A stretch of DNA of 64,000 nt from an uncultured Candidatus Saccharibacteria bacterium (GTDB lineage: Bacteria > Patescibacteriota > Minisyncoccia > Phycocordibacterales > UBA2100): NCBI GenBank assembly GCA_964648335.1, contig CAZYLZ010000004.1, forward strand, positions 6,189-70,188. Reading direction: 5' to 3'. The notes under the pieces were generated by a model that was given only the letters and a program-made list of their open reading frames with translations, searched no databases and had not been told where the DNA came from. Shown here piece by piece: positions 37,412 to 62,110 of this stretch. Every line of letters begins with the position of its first letter. Positions within the stretch are counted from its first letter, which is position 1. A program made the translations under genes and the position numbers.

Positions 37412-37475
37412 TACCACCCCTTTGCCGCAAGGGCGTTCTCTGCGGCCATCTGCTCGCCCACTTGCTTGGACCTCC
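37412..37475. repeat. Diverged direct duplicate (about 89% identity over about 64 nt) of the rnc 3' end (38350-38413). In-frame and ends with TAG.
   Basis: The 29-nt perfect core aagggcgttctctgcggccatctgctcg occurs at both sites. Minus-strand translation of the copy gives ...KQVGEQMAAENALAAKGW* versus rnc ...KQEAEQMAAENALSAKGW*. Confidence 0.8.
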
Positions 37476-37564
37476 TCTTCGTCTTTTTTCCTTTTTGCCA
37501 GATAAACCCTGTCTTTTTATCTCCTCATATTCACACCGTAAGCTCTTTCTCCATACATGTCCTT

Positions 37565-37598
37565 ATATCAAGACGACCGTTTCAATATAAGAAATCGG
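37565..37598. repeat. 34-bp quasi-palindrome downstream of PaaX-like gene 1 (tccttatatcaagacgaccgtttcaatataagaa). Same sequence family as 38222-38255.
   Basis: Central acgRccgt core flanked by inverted tccttata/tataagRa arms. About 80% identical to the copy upstream of the gene. Confidence 0.7.
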
Positions 37599-37638
37599 AC
37601 TCTGACTGCTCTTCGAAAGTTGTCGTGCCTTGATTTCC

Positions 37639-38220
37639 TCACGGCTTCGAAAGATTAAATCGCTTGCGAAGACGAGTATCGCCCTCGAGTTCTTCTACGA
37701 CCGCATACAATACCTCTCGACCGAGCACGAATTGGGTCTTGATGAGCGTAACGACGTCTTCACTGTCATAAGGATATACCCATACACTCCCCTGAAGCTG
37801 AACAAAGCCTACCGACGCAAGCATCGCGCGAAGCTGATTTCGTGCAGTGCGTCTTCGTTCAGGAACATCAAAAATGACCATCCTCCACTTTTGATCCCAC
37901 TTTTTAGGAACACTTGTCGACCGCGGCTTTTCGGAAAACTTGATTAAAAAACTTTCACCGAGCGAGGTTATGCGCGCATATTTTTTACCATTTTCCTCGT
38001 GCCATGCCACATATCCATGTGCCACAAGTCGCGCTAATGCTGCATTTGCTCGCCAAGCATACGCGGAGCGGTTTTGATTAGTGTACGTCAGCAACTGCAA
38101 GGCATTTGGTGCAACAACTGCGACGCCGAGTAATCCTCCCACCTTGAGTGCTGTCAGGACTGCGTGCTTGATATTCTGCTTACGGGCTCGTTTCTTGACT
38201 CGTTTTTCTATTTTACCCAT
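37639..38220 (-). CDS. PaaX-family transcriptional regulator-like protein, short form (N-terminal winged helix plus central PaaX/Cas2-like domain; no long C-terminal domain). Paralog of 60191..60754.
   Basis: WDQKWRMVIFDVPERRRTARNQLRAMLASVGFVQLQGSVWVYPYD matches the PaaX central region (WDGKW...GFG...). N-terminal wHTH ...LARLVAHGYVAWHEENGKKYARITSLGESFL. Confidence 0.6.
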   Translation of the reverse strand: MGKIEKRVKKRARKQNIKHAVLTALKVGGLLGVAVVAPNALQLLTYTNQNRSAYAWRANAALARLVAHGYVAWHEENGKKYARITSLGESFLIKFSEKPRSTSVPKKWDQKWRMVIFDVPERRRTARNQLRAMLASVGFVQLQGSVWVYPYDSEDVVTLIKTQFVLGREVLYAVVEELEGDTRLRKRFNLSKP

Positions 38221-38221
38221 A

Positions 38222-38255
38222 TCCTTATATTAACACGGCCGTCTATTTATAAGGA
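38222..38255. repeat. 34-bp quasi-palindrome immediately upstream of PaaX-like gene 1 (tccttatattaacacggccgtctatttataagga). Putative operator.
   Basis: Near-perfect dyad around a palindromic acggccgt core. Begins 2 bp upstream of the gene start. Confidence 0.7.
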
Positions 38256-38348
38256 TACTGAGAGGAGATCGGGCAAAATTGAGGGACGGGAAATCGCTTG
38301 GTAGGTGCCGGGCTTTTCGATGTATCGTTAGAGAAACGCTTGTGTGAA

Positions 38349-39038
38349 TTACCAACCTTTTGCTGAAAGGGCGTTCTCTGCGGCCATCTGCTCGGCCTCT
38401 TGCTTGGACTTCCCTTCGCCCTTGGCGACCAAGGTCTGGCCTATGTAGGCTCCCGTTATGAACTTCTTGTCGTGGTCGGGTCCTGCCTGCGCCACGAGCT
38501 CGTACGACGGCGTGATGCCCTCTTTCTCTTGCGCGATCTCCTGGAAGCGGCTCTTAGCGTCTTGCCAGAGGCGTTTCGCAACCACCTCGTCGGTCTTATG
38601 GAACAGCTGCTTGGCGATAAACTGCTCTGCGGCAGCATAGCCTTGGTCCAGGTACAAAGCACCTATGAAGGCCTCGAAGGTGTTGGCCAGTATGTATTGG
38701 CGTGCGCGGCCGGTGTCTTTTGCCTCGCCCTTCGAGAGGAGCAAGAAGTCGTTCATGCCAAGATCGGTCGCAGCCTGCGATATAGAAACAGTATTGACGA
38801 GCGCTGCACGAAACGCTGTGAGCTCCCCTTCGGCTTTGTCGGGATACTTGCCGAACAAAAAATCGGTGACAGCAAGCTCCAAGACCGCGTCGCCCAAGAA
38901 CTCGAGACGCTCGTTATGTGCGATACCCGAGCGGTTCTCGTTTATAAACGAGCGATGTGTAAAGGCCTGCTTTAGCAGCTCTTTCTTGGCAAACGTAAAG
39001 CCGACACGTACCTCGAATGTAGAGAAATCTTTGTCCAT
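38349..39038 (-). CDS. rnc: Ribonuclease III.
   Basis: RNase III signature ERLEFLGDAVLELAVTDFLF; C-terminal dsRBD. Confidence 0.9.
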   Translation of the reverse strand: MDKDFSTFEVRVGFTFAKKELLKQAFTHRSFINENRSGIAHNERLEFLGDAVLELAVTDFLFGKYPDKAEGELTAFRAALVNTVSISQAATDLGMNDFLLLSKGEAKDTGRARQYILANTFEAFIGALYLDQGYAAAEQFIAKQLFHKTDEVVAKRLWQDAKSRFQEIAQEKEGITPSYELVAQAGPDHDKKFITGAYIGQTLVAKGEGKSKQEAEQMAAENALSAKGW

Positions 39039-58866: not shown

Positions 58867-59331
58867 ATGAAGCGACATCACAGCGCACTCATTCTTCTCG
58901 CTGCGCTCATCATCGTCTTTGCGTACGTTCAGTACTCGATAAAGACGCGCTTTATCTCGACCGACACCGTCGACGTCGCGACCACCGAGGTCGTGACCAT
59001 CTGCGGCAAAGAGCTCGAAACCGATGTCGTGACGATAGACGGCGTCGACGTCGCACGCGAGCTGGGAGCGATCATGACCAGCGAATACGAGGCAGTGGCG
59101 AATAAAGATGCGACAAGCTGCTTCGTGATGCAGGCGTATCTCGATGGCACGCGGATACGCACCTCGGTAACCGAGGAGATTGGCATTGACTCACCACTCA
59201 AGGGTAGGCACCTGTACCGCATCCGCCTCGACGACACGCAGTTCTTGCTGGACCGCGCAACACGGCAAATCTACAGCGTAAACACGATGGACGGCAGCAC
59301 CCGCGATATCGTCGGCATCTTTGCCGACTAG
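58867..59331 (+). CDS. Membrane-anchored hypothetical protein (154 aa).
   Basis: N-terminal TM MKRHHSALILLAALIIVFAYV. Intact ORF. Confidence 0.45.
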   Translation: MKRHHSALILLAALIIVFAYVQYSIKTRFISTDTVDVATTEVVTICGKELETDVVTIDGVDVARELGAIMTSEYEAVANKDATSCFVMQAYLDGTRIRTSVTEEIGIDSPLKGRHLYRIRLDDTQFLLDRATRQIYSVNTMDGSTRDIVGIFAD

Positions 59332-60035
59332 AACGGCTGCACTACCCCTTTGTGATCGACGAATGCACCCGAAACCAGGGTGTCTTTTTTTGCCGTAAGC
59401 AGTGCAAAGATGTCGCGTGCAGCGTCTGTGGCAGCAATAGGCGCCGACGTGCCACCCATATCGGTAGCGACCCAGCCCGGGTGTATCAAGACCGATGTGA
59501 TGTCTTTGTTGCGTATGCCGAACGACGCGAATGCGTAGTTGAGTGCAGCTTTGCTCGCACCATACGCCCAATGGTCGGCATAGTATTGGTTGCCCTCTCC
59601 CACAGTAAGCGCAGACACCGATCCCATGATCGACGTGATAGAGGCGACGATCTTGTCGTTACCGGCATGAAGGTTTTCTAAGAGAGCATTGGCCAAAAAA
59701 GTGGGACCGATGGCATTGGTCTTGAATATGGTATCGACAGTGACGAAATCGCTAGTGATATCGTCGTCATCGACCGAGGTGCTGTCGTAGAGCCCAGCGT
59801 TGTTGATGAGGATGTCGAGACCGACTCCGGAAAGCGATGACGCGAGCGCTTGAATAGACTCTTGGCTCGTGACATCCAAAGGCACCACGATGGCGGACGC
59901 GTCTGCCACCAAGTCCTCGGGCATGCTGCCAGGGTCGCGCACCGCGGCGTACACCTGCCACCCTTCGCGCAAAAAGACCCGAGTAAGTTCGAGCCCCACC
60001 CCGCGCCCAGCCCCGGTTATGAGTACGGTTTTCAC
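59328..60035 (-). CDS. Short-chain dehydrogenase/reductase (SDR) family oxidoreductase; GTG start.
   Basis: TGAGRGVG cofactor-binding motif, NNAG motif, catalytic Yxxx K region (YGASKAALN). Confidence 0.8.
   Translation of the reverse strand: MKTVLITGAGRGVGLELTRVFLREGWQVYAAVRDPGSMPEDLVADASAIVVPLDVTSQESIQALASSLSGVGLDILINNAGLYDSTSVDDDDITSDFVTVDTIFKTNAIGPTFLANALLENLHAGNDKIVASITSIMGSVSALTVGEGNQYYADHWAYGASKAALNYAFASFGIRNKDITSVLIHPGWVATDMGGTSAPIAATDAARDIFALLTAKKDTLVSGAFVDHKGVVQPF
60005..60034. repeat. Native 5' end of the SDR gene (first 10 codons), duplicated in diverged form at 60979-61008.
   Basis: gcccagccccggttatgagtacggttttca versus gcccagtctcggtaatgagtacggttttca (27/30). The copy reads ATGAAAACCGTACTCATTACCGAGACTGGGC (MKTVLITETG) versus the native VKTVLITGAG. 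Confidence 0.75.
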
Positions 60036-60123
60036 AGAGTAATACTAACACCCAACATTCATCAGGGTTACCCTTGTCCGCACGTCGACCTCCATGATGA
60101 TCGCCCAAACTACATGCACCGAT

Positions 60124-60157
60124 AATGTCCTATAGGACATTATCGGTGCATTCAAAA
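60124..60157. repeat. Perfect 34-bp palindrome gcaccgataatgtcctataggacattatcggtgc, between PaaX-like gene 2 and the SDR gene. Putative operator.
   Basis: Exact reverse-complement symmetry. Same family as 60755-60786 and 60841-60874. Confidence 0.8.
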
Positions 60158-60190
60158 AATCGCAAAAAAATAATTGGTACCGCAGTATAC

Positions 60191-60754
60191 TTAACGAAGT
60201 GAGAAGTGTGACCTAAGATCGCGGTCGTTCTCGATCGATTCTACAACCATGTACACAAGATGTTTTCCTATCCCAAGTTCAGTTTTTAATAATGTAAGCA
60301 GATCCTCGCAGTCGTAGGGATGAATCCAGACGCTATCTTGTAAACGCAAGAAGCCGGCGAGCATCAAGATTTCTCGAAGACGAACTCGCAGTTTCCGCCG
60401 TTTCTCTGGTATATCGAACACAACCACACGCCATCGTTCGTCCCACAGACGTGCACGACGTATCGCAAAATCCTCGAATACAAATTGTGACATCCTTCGC
60501 TCACCAGCTCTTGTGAGCGAATAGCCCTTCTCAGACCGTATTACCAAGCCGTTTTCTACCAAACGCTCAAGCGATCGGCCAAGGCTCGCCTTATGTCGTT
60601 TTCCCGGCACCATGCCGAGCCTCTGCATGGCACCGAGGATGTTTGGCACTACTAAGGCCACCGCTAAGACTCCCGCGAGTTTTATCGCATTAAGCAAAAG
60701 CTTTTGCTCGGGCGACAACCTCTTCTTCCTACCTTGTTCCTCAACAGCTCCCAT
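60191..60754 (-). CDS. PaaX-family transcriptional regulator-like protein, short form. Paralog of 37639..38220.
   Basis: WDERWRVVVFDIPEKRRKLRVRLREILMLAGFLRLQDSVWIHPYDCEDLLTLLKT (PaaX central/Cas2-like motif). wHTH ...LERLVENGLVIRSEKGYSLTRAGERRM. Confidence 0.6.
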   Translation of the reverse strand: MGAVEEQGRKKRLSPEQKLLLNAIKLAGVLAVALVVPNILGAMQRLGMVPGKRHKASLGRSLERLVENGLVIRSEKGYSLTRAGERRMSQFVFEDFAIRRARLWDERWRVVVFDIPEKRRKLRVRLREILMLAGFLRLQDSVWIHPYDCEDLLTLLKTELGIGKHLVYMVVESIENDRDLRSHFSLR

Positions 60755-60786
60755 ACGCCGATACTAGCCTATAGGACTATATCGGT
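60755..60786. repeat. Degenerate copy of the 34-bp palindrome (cgccgatactagcctataggactatatcggtg), abutting the start and RBS region of PaaX-like gene 2.
   Basis: 26/32 identical to 60125-60156. Centred on tcctatagga. Confidence 0.6.
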
Positions 60787-60840
60787 GTAGTTGCGTTGCC
60801 ACGAGGATCATTGCGCGTAATTCTTCTGTCTTTTTGGCTT

Positions 60841-60874
60841 TTCTACCAATACACCGATAACATCCTATAGGATG
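60841..60874. repeat. Perfect 34-bp palindrome acaccgataacatcctataggatgttatcggtgt, a variant with the central tg/ca dinucleotides swapped.
   Basis: Exact dyad. Differs from 60124-60157 only at the inner NN positions (CA...TG versus TG...CA). Confidence 0.8.
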
Positions 60875-60978
60875 TTATCGGTGTATTTGGAAGCGGATAA
60901 TGCTAAAAAATGGGTGCTAGAGATTGACAGAGATGGAGGCTAGAGTATTTGATGCTATCATCTGCCACACTTCCAACC

Positions 60979-61008
60979 CTGCCCAGTCTCGGTAATGAGT
61001 ACGGTTTT
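60979..61008. repeat. Diverged duplicate of the SDR gene 5' end (pseudo-start ATGAAAACCGTACTCATTACC...).
   Basis: See 60005-60034. It lies 944 bp away, on the far side of the PaaX-like cassette. Confidence 0.75.
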
Positions 61009-61060
61009 CATCCTTTAGTGTAAACCTAATAACTCTAGCAGGCGAACAAATGAGTCGACT

Positions 61061-62104
61061 TTAAAAAGGAATATCATCAATACTTATGTCAGGAGGTCGG
61101 GTAATTTCTACAGGTGTAAGTACCATCGGGCGTGGTGGCGATTCAAGGCCCAGTATACGCTTGGCACGAGCAAGTACATGATCATACGTCATGATTGCGA
61201 GGTTATGGTACGAAGAATTTACAATTCGATAGGCTTCATTCTGTGAAGAAGTCCAGTCCGCTGATCGCCCAAAGACTAACACGCAGCGTGGTTTTACAGT
61301 CTTTACATATTCGATCCTTTCAAGAAATTTGACACTGTTTGCCTCGCGCTCAAGCTCATAAACATACCTATTTGCCTGTGTTATTGCTTTCGTTAAATCC
61401 GGCGATGGAATATCATTCCCATGATCCTGACTATTCGCCCAAAACGTGAGGCCACCTCCGGGCCGCTTTATCTCAACAACATCCACGAAGCCATCATAGG
61501 CCTGCATTAAATAGTCTGAGACATGCGCTGTATCAATCGATCTCTCGTCCAGTATCTTTACAAACTCTGTTCCTAATACCCAATGATTCTCTTTAAACCA
61601 TTTCTGCCAACTACTTTCAGTTAAATCTTCACCCAGCATGCGCTCGAAGTCTTCCAATGCAGAAACCCTCTTTTGCTGGTCTAGACTGAGTAAGATATCT
61701 CTCGGTAAAATTGAGTTTTCATTTATGAACTTCAGAACACTTGTCTTGTCAGGATTCTCGAAGAGTGCCTTGATATGCTCAATATCGCCGCCATCAAATT
61801 TCTGATCAAGAGGGATATATTTTTTTACCCCATCTATTAGAGGAGCATAATTCTCACCTATAAATTTAACTAAAGATAAAAATTCTTCATTATCTAATGT
61901 GAGCTCGCTCTTCGGAACAGTAACCTCTGGCGATTCGGCCCCAACCTCATTCTTATAACGACCAATCTTGAGATTTATGTCATCAGTTTTTCCGGAATTA
62001 TGCGGAACCCTCCAAAAAGAGGCTCGTGTGACAACGGTTTTTTTCCTTTTTAGAACAGTGTGCAATGAGCCTATGCCTCCCTTACTTTGTCGCACCTCTT
62101 TCAT
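61061..62104 (-). CDS. PD-(D/E)xK nuclease-fold protein resembling the Shedu/DUF4263 defense family. The gene is AT-rich (about 42% GC versus about 58% for flanks).
   Basis: ESSWQKWFKENHWVLGTEFVKILDERSIDTAHVSDYLMQAYDGFVDVVEIKRPG has a D...(D)hhEhK nuclease motif preceded by a W..F..N.W.LG segment. Visibly lower GC than neighbours. Confidence 0.5.
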   Translation of the reverse strand: MKEVRQSKGGIGSLHTVLKRKKTVVTRASFWRVPHNSGKTDDINLKIGRYKNEVGAESPEVTVPKSELTLDNEEFLSLVKFIGENYAPLIDGVKKYIPLDQKFDGGDIEHIKALFENPDKTSVLKFINENSILPRDILLSLDQQKRVSALEDFERMLGEDLTESSWQKWFKENHWVLGTEFVKILDERSIDTAHVSDYLMQAYDGFVDVVEIKRPGGGLTFWANSQDHGNDIPSPDLTKAITQANRYVYELEREANSVKFLERIEYVKTVKPRCVLVFGRSADWTSSQNEAYRIVNSSYHNLAIMTYDHVLARAKRILGLESPPRPMVLTPVEITRPPDISIDDIPF

Positions 62105-62110
62105 GATGCG

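What the first reader, a model, noticed from the sequence alone, without database searches (positions are those of the whole stretch)
61061..62104. AT-rich horizontally acquired gene for a PD-(D/E)xK nuclease resembling Shedu/DUF4263, adjacent to the PaaX-like cassette
The 1-kb gene body is conspicuously AT-rich (about 42% GC) in a genome segment of about 58% GC, so it was probably acquired recently. The protein carries a PD-(D/E)xK-type motif (DGFVDVVEIK). The preceding W..F..N.W.LG segment resembles the Shedu (SduA/DUF4263) anti-phage nuclease family as far as I can recall it. It sits between pheT and the PaaX-like regulator with its palindromic operators. This could be a minimal defense island in a streamlined genome, with a dedicated repressor.
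Basis: partly seen in the sequence, partly recalled or inferred. Interest (0 to 1): 0.6.

Follow-up and report, generated by a model that had tools for sequence, protein, structure and literature searches.

The report
Shedu anti-phage nuclease with SSB-like tail
The AT-rich gene is an intact, horizontally acquired Shedu (SduA) anti-phage nuclease in a variable cargo site next to pheT of a Patescibacteria (CPR) genome; it is a known kind of defence gene, the neighbouring PaaX-like gene is not its regulator, and its one unreported feature is a C-terminal tip that copies the docking motif of the bacterial single-strand-DNA-binding protein SSB.

Summary
ORF 61061-62104 (-) encodes 347 aa at 42.0 % GC (GC3 0.385, lowest of 35 ORFs) against about 55 % for the rest of the window.

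The main interpretation is confirmed. The protein is a full-length Shedu/SduA: Pfam SduA_C 80 bits (cut-off 27), PADLOC SduA subfamily profile E 1.8e-137, and best sequence and fold matches to the solved Shedu structures. All PD-(D/E)xK motif residues are present and invariant in 68/68 relatives (E163, D197, E211, K213, Q243). The motif-II Asp is D197, not an Asp inside "DGFVDVVEIK".

A close relative (PheT 93 % aa) is collinear up to the pheT stop codon and again from 59383, but carries an unrelated gene in between. The site is therefore a variable cargo hotspot.

The "dedicated PaaX repressor" idea is not supported. No PaaX-like gene lies within 6 kb of 79 homologues. The palindromes lie downstream of sduA. 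A second PaaX-like cassette with the same anatomy sits 23 kb away.

One feature appears unreported in the papers searched. About 70 % of close relatives end in an acidic linker plus [D/E/N]-I-P-F, the SSB C-terminal tip. In one genome the adjacent SSB and the SduA share the last seven residues (LDDSIPF) through different codons.

Verdict: a new member of a known kind, with a testable lead.

The parts
61061..62104 (-). sduA: complete Shedu nuclease gene (347 aa plus stop)
   Evidence: ORF. Pfam SduA_C E 2.2e-22, 80.4 bits against cut-off 27. PADLOC SduA PDLC00385 E 1.8e-137 over aa 14-321 / profile 8-317 of 319.
61919..62104 (-). aa 1-62: beta-rich N-terminal putative sensor domain (four to five strands, net charge +7 over aa 1-60; invariant W31, G48, R49; near-invariant K19, K21, R27, K46, H35)
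61625..61918 (-). aa 63-160: helical part of the N-domain plus alpha-helical linker, homologous to the B. cereus Shedu linker
   Evidence: The family profile aligns positions 62-320 with 8ti8 residues 110-379, E 6.5e-13. Helices 72-158 in the model.
61145..61624 (-). aa 161-320: DUF4263 PD-(D/E)xK nuclease domain. Catalytic codons: E163 61616-61618, D197 61514-61516, E211 61472-61474, K213 61466-61468, Q243 61376-61378
   Evidence: Mapping to B. cereus E204/D249/E264/K266/Q295 and E. coli D269/E283/K285. All invariant in 68/68. Foldseek top hits 8ti8/8ti9, E 2.5e-10, probability 1.0.
61064..61144 (-). aa 321-347: poorly conserved Pro/acidic linker ending in the extreme C-terminal tip ...ISIDDIPF, an SSB-Ct-like motif
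   Evidence: 83 unique tails among the top 119 relatives end [ILVMT]-P-F, with P and F invariant, D at -4 in 59/83 and mean net charge -4.5. None of about 1,140 background ORFs end in this motif. SSB-Ct is defined as DFDD+DIPF in PMC10143822.
62105..62110 (-). 6-nt spacer between the pheT stop codon (62111-62113) and the sduA ATG; left boundary of the variable segment
   Evidence: Sequence. Homology with the close relative ends at 62112. No promoter-like site above chance.
59384..62110 (-). Variable cargo segment (sduA, PaaX-like cassette, SDR gene), replaced in a close relative by one unrelated 283-aa membrane-protein gene
   Evidence: blastn of L094/L095/L096 against the window: 64000-62112 at 89.2 % and 59383-55910 at 83.5 %, with nothing in between.
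60973..61029 (-). Degenerate copy of the SDR gene's ribosome-binding region and first 31 nt (MKTVLIT...), 32 nt after the sduA stop. With 59996-60048 it forms the direct repeat bracketing the PaaX-like cassette. Adjacent to the Shedu gene, not part of it.
   Evidence: 57 nt, spacing 976.
60191..60754 (-). PaaX_M/Cas2-like wHTH gene with palindromes at 60848-60887, 60753-60789 and 60114-60151. An independent inserted cassette, not a Shedu component.
   Evidence: Pfam PaaX_M E 4.7e-20. Palindromes. 0/79 co-occurrence. Paralogous cassette at 37412-38413.

Best explanation
The gene encodes an intact single-protein Shedu (SduA) immune nuclease. It has an N-terminal regulatory domain, so it is 'Type 1' in the sense of Gu et al. 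and 'type I' in the sense of Loeff et al. Its architecture is a basic beta-rich N-terminal domain (aa 1-62), a helical region and linker (63-160), a DUF4263 PD-(D/E)xK nuclease (161-320) and an acidic tail ending in DDIPF (321-347). By homology with the two characterised enzymes (inferred, not shown here), it should form a homotetramer through the nuclease domains. The N-terminal domains would hold the nuclease inactive until they recognise an infection-specific nucleic-acid feature: free DNA ends in E. coli SduA, possibly single-stranded nucleic acid for Whirly-type domains as in B. cereus. The enzyme would then nick or cut the invading DNA using E163/D197/E211/K213/Q243 and a divalent metal. 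The gene is cargo in a variable site immediately 3' of pheT in a Patescibacteria (CPR) genome. It starts 6 nt after the pheT stop and is probably read through from the pheST transcript (inferred). It works alone. The PaaX-like gene downstream is a separately inserted cassette. The conserved C-terminal tip most likely acts as an SSB-tail mimic (see novel case).
For: Family: Pfam SduA_C 80.4 bits against cut-off 27. PADLOC SduA PDLC00385 E 1.8e-137 full length, plus 22 further SduA profiles. PDB sequence hits are only Shedu: 8ti8 E 6.8e-8 and 8ps4 E 1.2e-4 with the single sequence, 6.5e-13 and 1.7e-11 with the profile. Foldseek of the AF2 model (pLDDT 73; nuclease domain 80-94) gives only B. cereus Shedu chains below E 1e-3. 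Catalytic motifs I-IV are all present and invariant in 68/68, mapped onto residues whose mutation abolishes defence (PMC10441436; 10.1101/2023.08.10.552762). Single-gene system: no PaaX homologue in 79 loci. The 142 nearest neighbours are heterogeneous, with ResIII in 8 plus methylases, resolvases and reverse transcriptases. Individual homologues sit beside MutH plus methylase, Vsr plus methylase plus resolvase plus transposase, and integrase plus AlwI R-M plus GmrSD. Acquisition: lowest GC and GC3 in the window. A GC deficit of -0.13 is exceeded by only 5 of 79 homologue loci. The close relative carries different cargo at the same site. The gene is intact and 100 % identical on 7 contigs from independent metagenomes. 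Host: the nearest named PheT relatives are Campbellbacteria, Kaiserbacteria and Paceibacterota.
Confidence: 0.85

Rival explanations
1. One reading: sduA and the PaaX-like wHTH protein form a two-gene defence module in which the PaaX-like protein represses sduA through the palindromic operators.
For: Adjacency and same orientation. Both genes are below genomic GC. A two-component Shedu with a DNA-binding partner exists (KELShedu, PMC12577705).
Against: 0 of 79 homologue loci have a PaaX-like gene or the palindrome within 6 kb, and none of 142 nearest neighbours is PaaX-like. All three palindromes lie 3' of sduA; sduA begins 6 nt after pheT, leaving no operator space. The PaaX-like gene is bracketed by a 57-nt duplication of the SDR 5' end, so it was inserted separately. 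A 38 %-identical paralogue with its own palindromes and a 64-nt duplication lies beside RNase III, far from any Shedu. KELA is an upstream WYL-like protein separated by a 3-bp gap, which is unlike this arrangement.
Confidence: 0.04
2. The protein is not primarily an immune effector but a housekeeping or mobile-element DNA-processing nuclease recruited to replication or repair sites through its SSB-like tail.
For: Conserved SSB-Ct-like tip. Tight coupling to the essential pheST operon. One homologue is directly adjacent to ssb. Very high conservation (57-67 % identity) across many phyla.
Against: Patchy, HGT-like distribution with AT-shifted composition in 72/79 loci. Absent from a close relative at the same site. 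Homologues sit in R-M and mobile-element islands. About half of the species-level homologues lack the tail altogether. DUF4263 proteins with mutated catalytic residues lose anti-phage function in two tested systems.
Confidence: 0.07
3. The gene is a non-functional passenger or decaying remnant of a past transfer.
For: Un-ameliorated composition; no recognisable promoter or Shine-Dalgarno sequence of its own.
Against: Full-length alignment to the subfamily profile with no frameshift or stop. Every invariant family residue is retained, including all catalytic ones and the C-terminal tip. The sequence is identical in several independent metagenomes.
Confidence: 0.03

Closest known systems
B. cereus B4264 Shedu / SduA (PDB 8TI8, 8TI9; Gu et al., PMC10441436), 'Type 1A'
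   Same: Three-part plan: an N-terminal beta-rich domain of about 100 aa, a helical linker and the DUF4263 nuclease. Linker plus nuclease are detectably homologous (profile E 6.5e-13 over 62-320). It is the best fold match. Motifs I-IV are identical in kind. The N-domain has beta-beta-beta-beta-alpha order, like the sPC4/Whirly repeat proposed for B. cereus.
E. coli SduA (PDB 8PS4/8PS5; Loeff et al., 10.1101/2023.08.10.552762)
   Same: DUF4263 nuclease with the same catalytic D/E/K. The N-domain restrains a toxic nuclease. Single-gene system.
   Different: The E. coli N-domain (1-145) is an unrelated fold that clamps free dsDNA ends, and no homology outside the nuclease domain was found here (profile 147-317 only). 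It has no SSB-like tail.
PADLOC SduA subfamily PDLC00385 and NCBI 'Shedu immune nuclease family protein' / 'DUF4263 domain-containing protein' entries
   Same: This protein is a full-length member (E 1.8e-137). Relatives of 57-67 % identity are already deposited from Moranbacteria, Shapirobacteria, Parcubacteria, Omnitrophota and Flavobacteriaceae MAGs under those names.
   Different: None of these has been characterised. The profile ends at aa 321 and does not include the tail.
Bacterial SSB C-terminal tip (SSB-Ct, DFDDDIPF; PMC10143822, PMC5872125, PMC10018359)
   Same: The extreme C-terminal position, a preceding disordered linker, acidic residues, and the identical distal D-I-P-F. Two Poribacteria copies read D[YN]DDDIPF. 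One copy matches its neighbouring SSB over 7 residues.
   Different: It is attached to a nuclease, not to an OB-fold ssDNA binder. The proximal part has I/V at -8 and -6 rather than F at -7. Binding to any SSB partner is untested.
KELShedu two-component system (PMC12577705)
   Same: A DUF4263 nuclease encoded next to a DNA-binding protein.
   Different: KELA is a 12.6-kDa WYL-like beta-barrel encoded upstream with a 3-bp gap, and it binds the nuclease's N-terminus. Here the neighbour is a wHTH plus Cas2-like protein 306 nt downstream, not conserved with the nuclease.

Membership tests
Shedu / SduA (DUF4263, PF14082) | SduA_C (DUF4263) domain above the curated threshold | tested here: met
   80.4 bits against cut-off 27, aa 162-310 covering 3-158 of 159. 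23 PADLOC SduA profiles match, the best at E 1.8e-137.
Shedu / SduA (DUF4263, PF14082) | Complete PD-(D/E)xK active site: motif I Glu, motif II Asp, motif III Glu-x-Lys, motif IV Gln | tested here: met
   E163, D197, E211, K213 and Q243 align with B. cereus E204/D249/E264/K266/Q295 and E. coli D269/E283/K285. Invariant in 68/68.
Shedu / SduA (DUF4263, PF14082) | Nuclease-domain fold like the solved Shedu structures | tested here: met
   Foldseek against PDB: the only hits with E < 1e-3 are 8ti8/8ti9 chains (E 2.5e-10 to 3.8e-7, probability 1.0, TM 0.56-0.68 normalised to the target).
Shedu / SduA (DUF4263, PF14082) | Stand-alone gene without an obligatory partner, found in defence or mobile islands | tested here: met
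   Heterogeneous neighbours, R-M and mobile contexts, variable hotspot in this genome.
Shedu / SduA (DUF4263, PF14082) | Homotetramer; metal-dependent DNA cleavage; protection against phage | not testable with these tools
   Requires multimer modelling, biochemistry and a phage assay.
Type 1A Shedu (sPC4/Whirly N-terminal domain; Gu et al.) | N-terminal domain with the sPC4/Whirly beta-beta-beta-beta-alpha fold | tested here: inconclusive
KELShedu-type two-component Shedu | Small WYL-like partner encoded immediately upstream in one operon and conserved with the nuclease | tested here: not met
   Upstream is pheT. The downstream neighbour is PaaX_M/Cas2-like and absent from 79 homologue loci.
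   Palindromes at 60114-60151, 60753-60789 and 60848-60887 all lie 3' of sduA; there is a 6-nt gap upstream of sduA.
SSB-Ct-type C-terminal docking motif | Acidic residues followed by I-P-F as the last residues of the chain, after a disordered linker | tested here: met
   ...ISIDDIPF-COOH. P and F are invariant in 83/83 unique tails, with D at -4 in 59/83. pLDDT is below 52 for aa 321-340. The motif is absent from about 1,140 background ORFs.
SSB-Ct-type C-terminal docking motif | Binds the SSB-Ct pockets of SSB-interacting proteins, or an ssDNA-binding surface | not testable with these tools
   Needs peptide-binding assays or complex modelling. The only indirect support is the 7-residue identity with the adjacent SSB in L081 through different codons.

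The most novel reading that the evidence does not exclude
A large sub-clade of Shedu nucleases, including this one, carries a functional mimic of the SSB C-terminal tip on a flexible acidic tail. The tail could fold back on the basic N-terminal nucleic-acid-sensing domain as an autoinhibitory pseudo-substrate that ssDNA or DNA ends displace, as SSB, T4 gp32 and T7 gp2.5 tails do on their own DNA-binding clefts (own knowledge). Alternatively it could dock the nuclease onto proteins that read SSB tails, such as host or phage replication and recombination enzymes (ExoI, RecQ, RecJ, PriA-type partners). That would place Shedu at replication forks or couple its nicking to an exonuclease. Either way it would be a previously undescribed regulatory layer for Shedu and an example of an immune effector plugging into the SSB interactome.
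Probability: 0.4. Interest if true: 0.65.

Novelty: new member of a known kind. Interest (0 to 1): 0.38.

Why it matters
As a gene call it is routine: defence-finder profiles already recognise this exact subfamily. Three points add some value. (1) It documents a Shedu nuclease as swappable cargo welded 6 nt behind an essential tRNA-synthetase operon in a CPR/Patescibacteria genome, a group in which defence repertoires are still poorly described. (2) It separates the nuclease from the PaaX-like cassette, which turns out to be a small, repeated, insertion-like unit worth studying in its own right. (3) The SSB-tip-like C-terminus is conserved in most close relatives, recurs in more distant Shedu clades, and in one genome matches its neighbouring SSB residue for residue. 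How Shedu enzymes are kept off and switched on is still open for most N-domain classes, and this motif gives a simple, testable hypothesis through tail deletion and peptide binding.

Tried and rejected
- PheT searches of genome contigs and metagenome contigs for relatives found nothing. The empty-site test succeeded only through the protein database plus contig look-up.
- Rfam and tRNA scans of the window were empty, giving no taxonomic marker and no tRNA-type integration site.
- The seven metagenome contigs with the exact protein are all identical to the window and break at the 40-nt palindrome, so none is a natural variant lacking the PaaX cassette.
- The promoter/terminator scan was not above shuffled expectation.
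- Comparing tail-bearing (101) with tail-less (52) members column by column gave no sharply discriminating position (maximum JS 0.39). The apparent N-terminal differences are partly an artefact of tblastn-truncated sequences.
- Phage records gave no match, plasmids only 24-33 % relatives, and IMG/VR a single locus, so phage or plasmid carriage of this subfamily was rejected as the main vehicle.
- The alternative cargo gene of the relative has no Pfam or PADLOC assignment.
- A beta-clamp-binding motif was considered for the tail and rejected from my own knowledge of the consensus (QL[SD]LF type): the tail matches the SSB tip instead.
- No SSB gene lies in the window, so the host's own tip could not be compared.

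Full report
**1. The observation**

Its N-terminus aligns with those of its homologues. Gene GC is 0.420 against 0.551 for the rest of the window.

The 1-kb bin 61001-62000 (0.415) is the lowest of all 64 bins. GC3 is 0.385 against a mean of 0.626 (sd 0.087) for 35 long ORFs, z = -2.75 and the lowest value. Synonymous-codon log-likelihood has z = -2.07.

pheT upstream and the SDR gene downstream have normal GC, so the deviation is local. The background is about 55 %, not 58 %. The quoted DGFVDVVEIK is aa 204-213. The preceding motif is WQKWFKENHWVLG (aa 166-178), one residue off from the recalled pattern.

**2. What the protein is**

- Pfam gives a single family, SduA_C (PF14082), at 80.4 bits against a cut-off of 27.
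- PADLOC matches 23 SduA profiles. The best is PDLC00385, E 1.8e-137, covering aa 14-321 against profile positions 8-317 of 319, so the protein is a full-length member of an already modelled subfamily.
- NCBIfam has nothing significant.
- The only PDB sequence relatives are the Shedu structures: 8ti8/8ti9 (B. cereus) and 8ps4 (E. coli). E-values are 6.8e-8 and 1.2e-4 with the single sequence, and 6.5e-13 and 1.7e-11 with a 68-sequence family profile.
- An AlphaFold2 model (mean pLDDT 73; nuclease domain blocks 80-94) has only B. cereus Shedu chains below E 1e-3 in Foldseek (E 2.5e-10, probability 1.0).

Gu et al. define the Shedu active site as motif I E204, motif II D249, motif III E264/K266 and motif IV Q295 (PMC10441436). 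Loeff et al. show that E226, D269, E283, K285 and E314 of E. coli SduA are required (10.1101/2023.08.10.552762). After correcting for tag offsets in the PDB chains, the alignments map these to E163, D197, E211, K213 and Q243 here. All five are invariant in 68/68 relatives.

**3. Architecture**

- aa 1-62 are beta-rich (strands 12-20, 24-33, 42-53, 56-59) and basic (net +7). W31, G48 and R49 are invariant.
- aa 63-160 are helical. The family profile aligns positions 62-320 with B. cereus residues 110-379, so linker and nuclease are homologous to that enzyme.
- aa 161-320 form the nuclease domain.
- aa 321-347 form a poorly conserved, low-confidence tail.

**4. Distribution and context of relatives**

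The word-indexed search finds 1,688 relatives at E <= 1e-5. The top 119 are 57-67 % identical and about 340 aa long. The exhaustive representative search finds 1,427 clusters at E <= 1e-3.

Eighty species-level genome loci span Patescibacteria, Elusimicrobia, Omnitrophota, Proteobacteria, Bacteroidota, Nitrospirota, Actinomycetota, Chloroflexota and two MAGs labelled archaeal, at 48-62 % identity. This is a star-like, HGT-type pattern.

The gene has lower GC than its flanks in 72 of 79 loci (median -0.058), while tracking host GC (r = 0.90). The -0.13 seen here is exceeded in only 5 loci.

Individual homologues lie next to MutH plus methylase, next to Vsr plus methylase plus resolvase plus transposase, and next to integrase plus AlwI R-M plus GmrSD. 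The 142 nearest neighbours share no dominant family: ResIII in 8, then methylases, resolvases and reverse transcriptases. This matches Gu et al.'s description of Shedu as a single-gene system associated with R-M systems and transposable elements. Phage records hold no relative, plasmids only 24-33 % ones, and IMG/VR one locus.

**5. The local site**

PheT homologues place the host in Patescibacteria: the named relatives at 45-60 % identity are Campbellbacteria, Kaiserbacteria and Paceibacterota. One relative has a 93 %-identical PheT (P0130).

Its contigs (L094-L096) align with the window from 64000 to 62112 (89.2 %) and from 59383 to 55910 (83.5 %), and not in between. Where the window has sduA, the PaaX-like gene and the SDR gene (2.73 kb), the relative has one unrelated 283-aa membrane-protein gene. 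That gene also starts 5 nt after the pheT stop and has no Pfam or PADLOC assignment.

The position immediately 3' of pheT is thus a variable cargo site, and sduA was gained or lost since these lineages split. In the window sduA starts 6 nt after the pheT stop, with no promoter-like site above chance. Read-through from pheST is the simplest inference.

**6. The PaaX-like neighbour**

The PaaX-like protein (187 aa; PaaX_M/Cas2-like plus wHTH) is not a Shedu partner, for four reasons:

- No homologue and no copy of its palindrome occurs within 6 kb of 79 sduA homologues.
- Its three palindromes (60114-60151, 60753-60789 overlapping its ATG, and 60848-60887) all lie downstream of sduA.
- It is bracketed by a 57-nt imperfect direct repeat (61029-60973 and 60048-59996). 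The repeat is the ribosome-binding region plus the first 31 nt of the SDR gene, so a cassette of about 0.98 kb was inserted into the 5' end of that gene.
- A 38 %-identical paralogue at 37639-38220 has the same anatomy, with its own different palindromes at both ends. It also has a 64-nt, 89 % direct repeat (37412-37475 and 38350-38413) copied from the 3' end of the RNase III gene. No Shedu is nearby.

The published two-component KELShedu has a quite different partner: an upstream WYL-like protein separated by a 3-bp gap.

**7. The C-terminal tip**

The protein ends ...PPDISIDDIPF. Among the top 119 relatives there are 83 unique tails that end [ILVMT]-P-F. P and F are invariant, I occupies -3 in 67, D occupies -4 in 59, acidic residues fill -5, -9 and -10, and I/V occupies -8. 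The linker is variable, 10-25 aa long, with mean net charge -4.5. The remaining relatives stop right after the nuclease domain.

In 1,166 ORFs of at least 100 aa from all fetched loci and the window, all 24 that end [DEN][ILVM]PF are SduA homologues. Among species genomes the tail is present in about 22 of 80. These include 9 of 12 Patescibacteria, and two Poribacteria copies read D[YN]DDDIPF. It recurs in about 11 of 92 complete, more divergent representatives, some with different N-terminal regions. The characterised B. cereus and E. coli enzymes lack it.

The motif equals the distal half of the bacterial SSB C-terminal tip, DFDD+DIPF. [quoted passage not shown]

In L081 (an Alphaproteobacteria MAG) an ssb gene lies directly upstream of a tail-bearing sduA. 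The SSB ends GGDLDDSIPF and the SduA ends NPELDDSIPF. The last seven residues are identical, including the rare Ser at -4. The DNA is only 18/24 identical, with the differences at four synonymous codons, and the two genes differ in GC (0.58 against 0.43). The identity is therefore held at the protein level and is not a recent DNA copy.

This is one case, not a statistic. Neither Shedu paper mentions such a tail or SSB, and four literature searches found no link. I therefore put it forward as a lead, not a finding. The tail may act as an SSB-tip mimic, either autoinhibitory on the basic N-domain or recruiting the nuclease to SSB-tail readers.

**8. Verdict**

The 'defence island with dedicated repressor' is not supported. 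The gene is a new member of a known, already profiled kind of single-gene anti-phage nuclease. It sits in a pheT-adjacent cargo hotspot of a CPR genome. The unreported SSB-like tail and the repeated PaaX-like insertion cassettes are the parts worth further work.

Noticed in passing
window 59996-61029 and 37412-38413: Both PaaX_M/Cas2-like wHTH genes of the window are cassettes of about 0.95 kb with the same anatomy. An imperfect 57-64-nt direct repeat copied from the end of the adjacent host gene (SDR 5' end; RNase III 3' end) brackets a unit of palindrome, gene, palindrome. Each cassette has its own palindrome sequence, and the proteins are 38 % identical. They look like small insertion-type elements that target gene ends.
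   Followed up: partly
L081 5481-7011 (JANRKK010000017.1, Alphaproteobacteria MAG): An ssb gene lies directly upstream of a tail-bearing sduA. The SSB ends ...GGDLDDSIPF and the SduA ends ...NPELDDSIPF: seven identical terminal residues encoded with different synonymous codons (18/24 nt), with ssb GC 0.58 against sduA GC 0.43.
   Followed up: partly
L094 8247-9098 (also L095, L096): In a close relative (PheT 93 % aa) the site 3' of pheT holds a different AT-rich gene for a 283-aa protein. It has an N-terminal and two or three C-terminal hydrophobic segments, no Pfam or PADLOC match, and starts 5 nt after the pheT stop. It is alternative cargo of the same hotspot, possibly another defence or membrane effector.
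   Followed up: partly
window 59332-59383: The last ~52 nt of the SDR coding region are conserved in the relative that lacks the SDR gene. This suggests the relative once carried it, or that this stretch belongs to the convergent 154-aa gene's 3' region.
   Followed up: no
L013 2063-4417, L015 2346-4685, L018 18-2474, L020 3607-5997: In several Patescibacteria/PVC homologue loci an ORF of about 780-820 aa ends just upstream of sduA on the same strand. ResIII was the commonest neighbour family (8/142), and these long ORFs may account for some of those hits, but this was not checked per ORF. It may be a recurrent helicase or R-M partner in these lineages.
   Followed up: no
window 60848-60887; L001, L002, L005, L006: Metagenome assemblies of this organism break at, or fold back around, repeats. 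L002, L005 and L006 end inside the 40-nt perfect palindrome. L001 is an inverted-duplicate assembly artefact joined near window 59209-59249.
   Followed up: yes
P0140-P0258: Many Patescibacteria PheT homologues are about 780-810 aa and carry an extra NlpC/P60 (PF00877) peptidase domain, and some are named 'C40 family peptidase'. The PheT of this organism (643 aa) lacks it.
   Followed up: no
P0030: One SduA homologue (340 aa, PF14082) is named '23S rRNA pseudoU1915 N3-methylase RlmH' by JGI, which is probably a mis-annotation.
   Followed up: no
P0271, P0283, P0281: Some more distant Shedu representatives end in other acidic tips (…DDEDPFGDE, …GEDPFGDE, …EEEDFSEWPF). These may be variant C-terminal docking motifs.
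   Followed up: no
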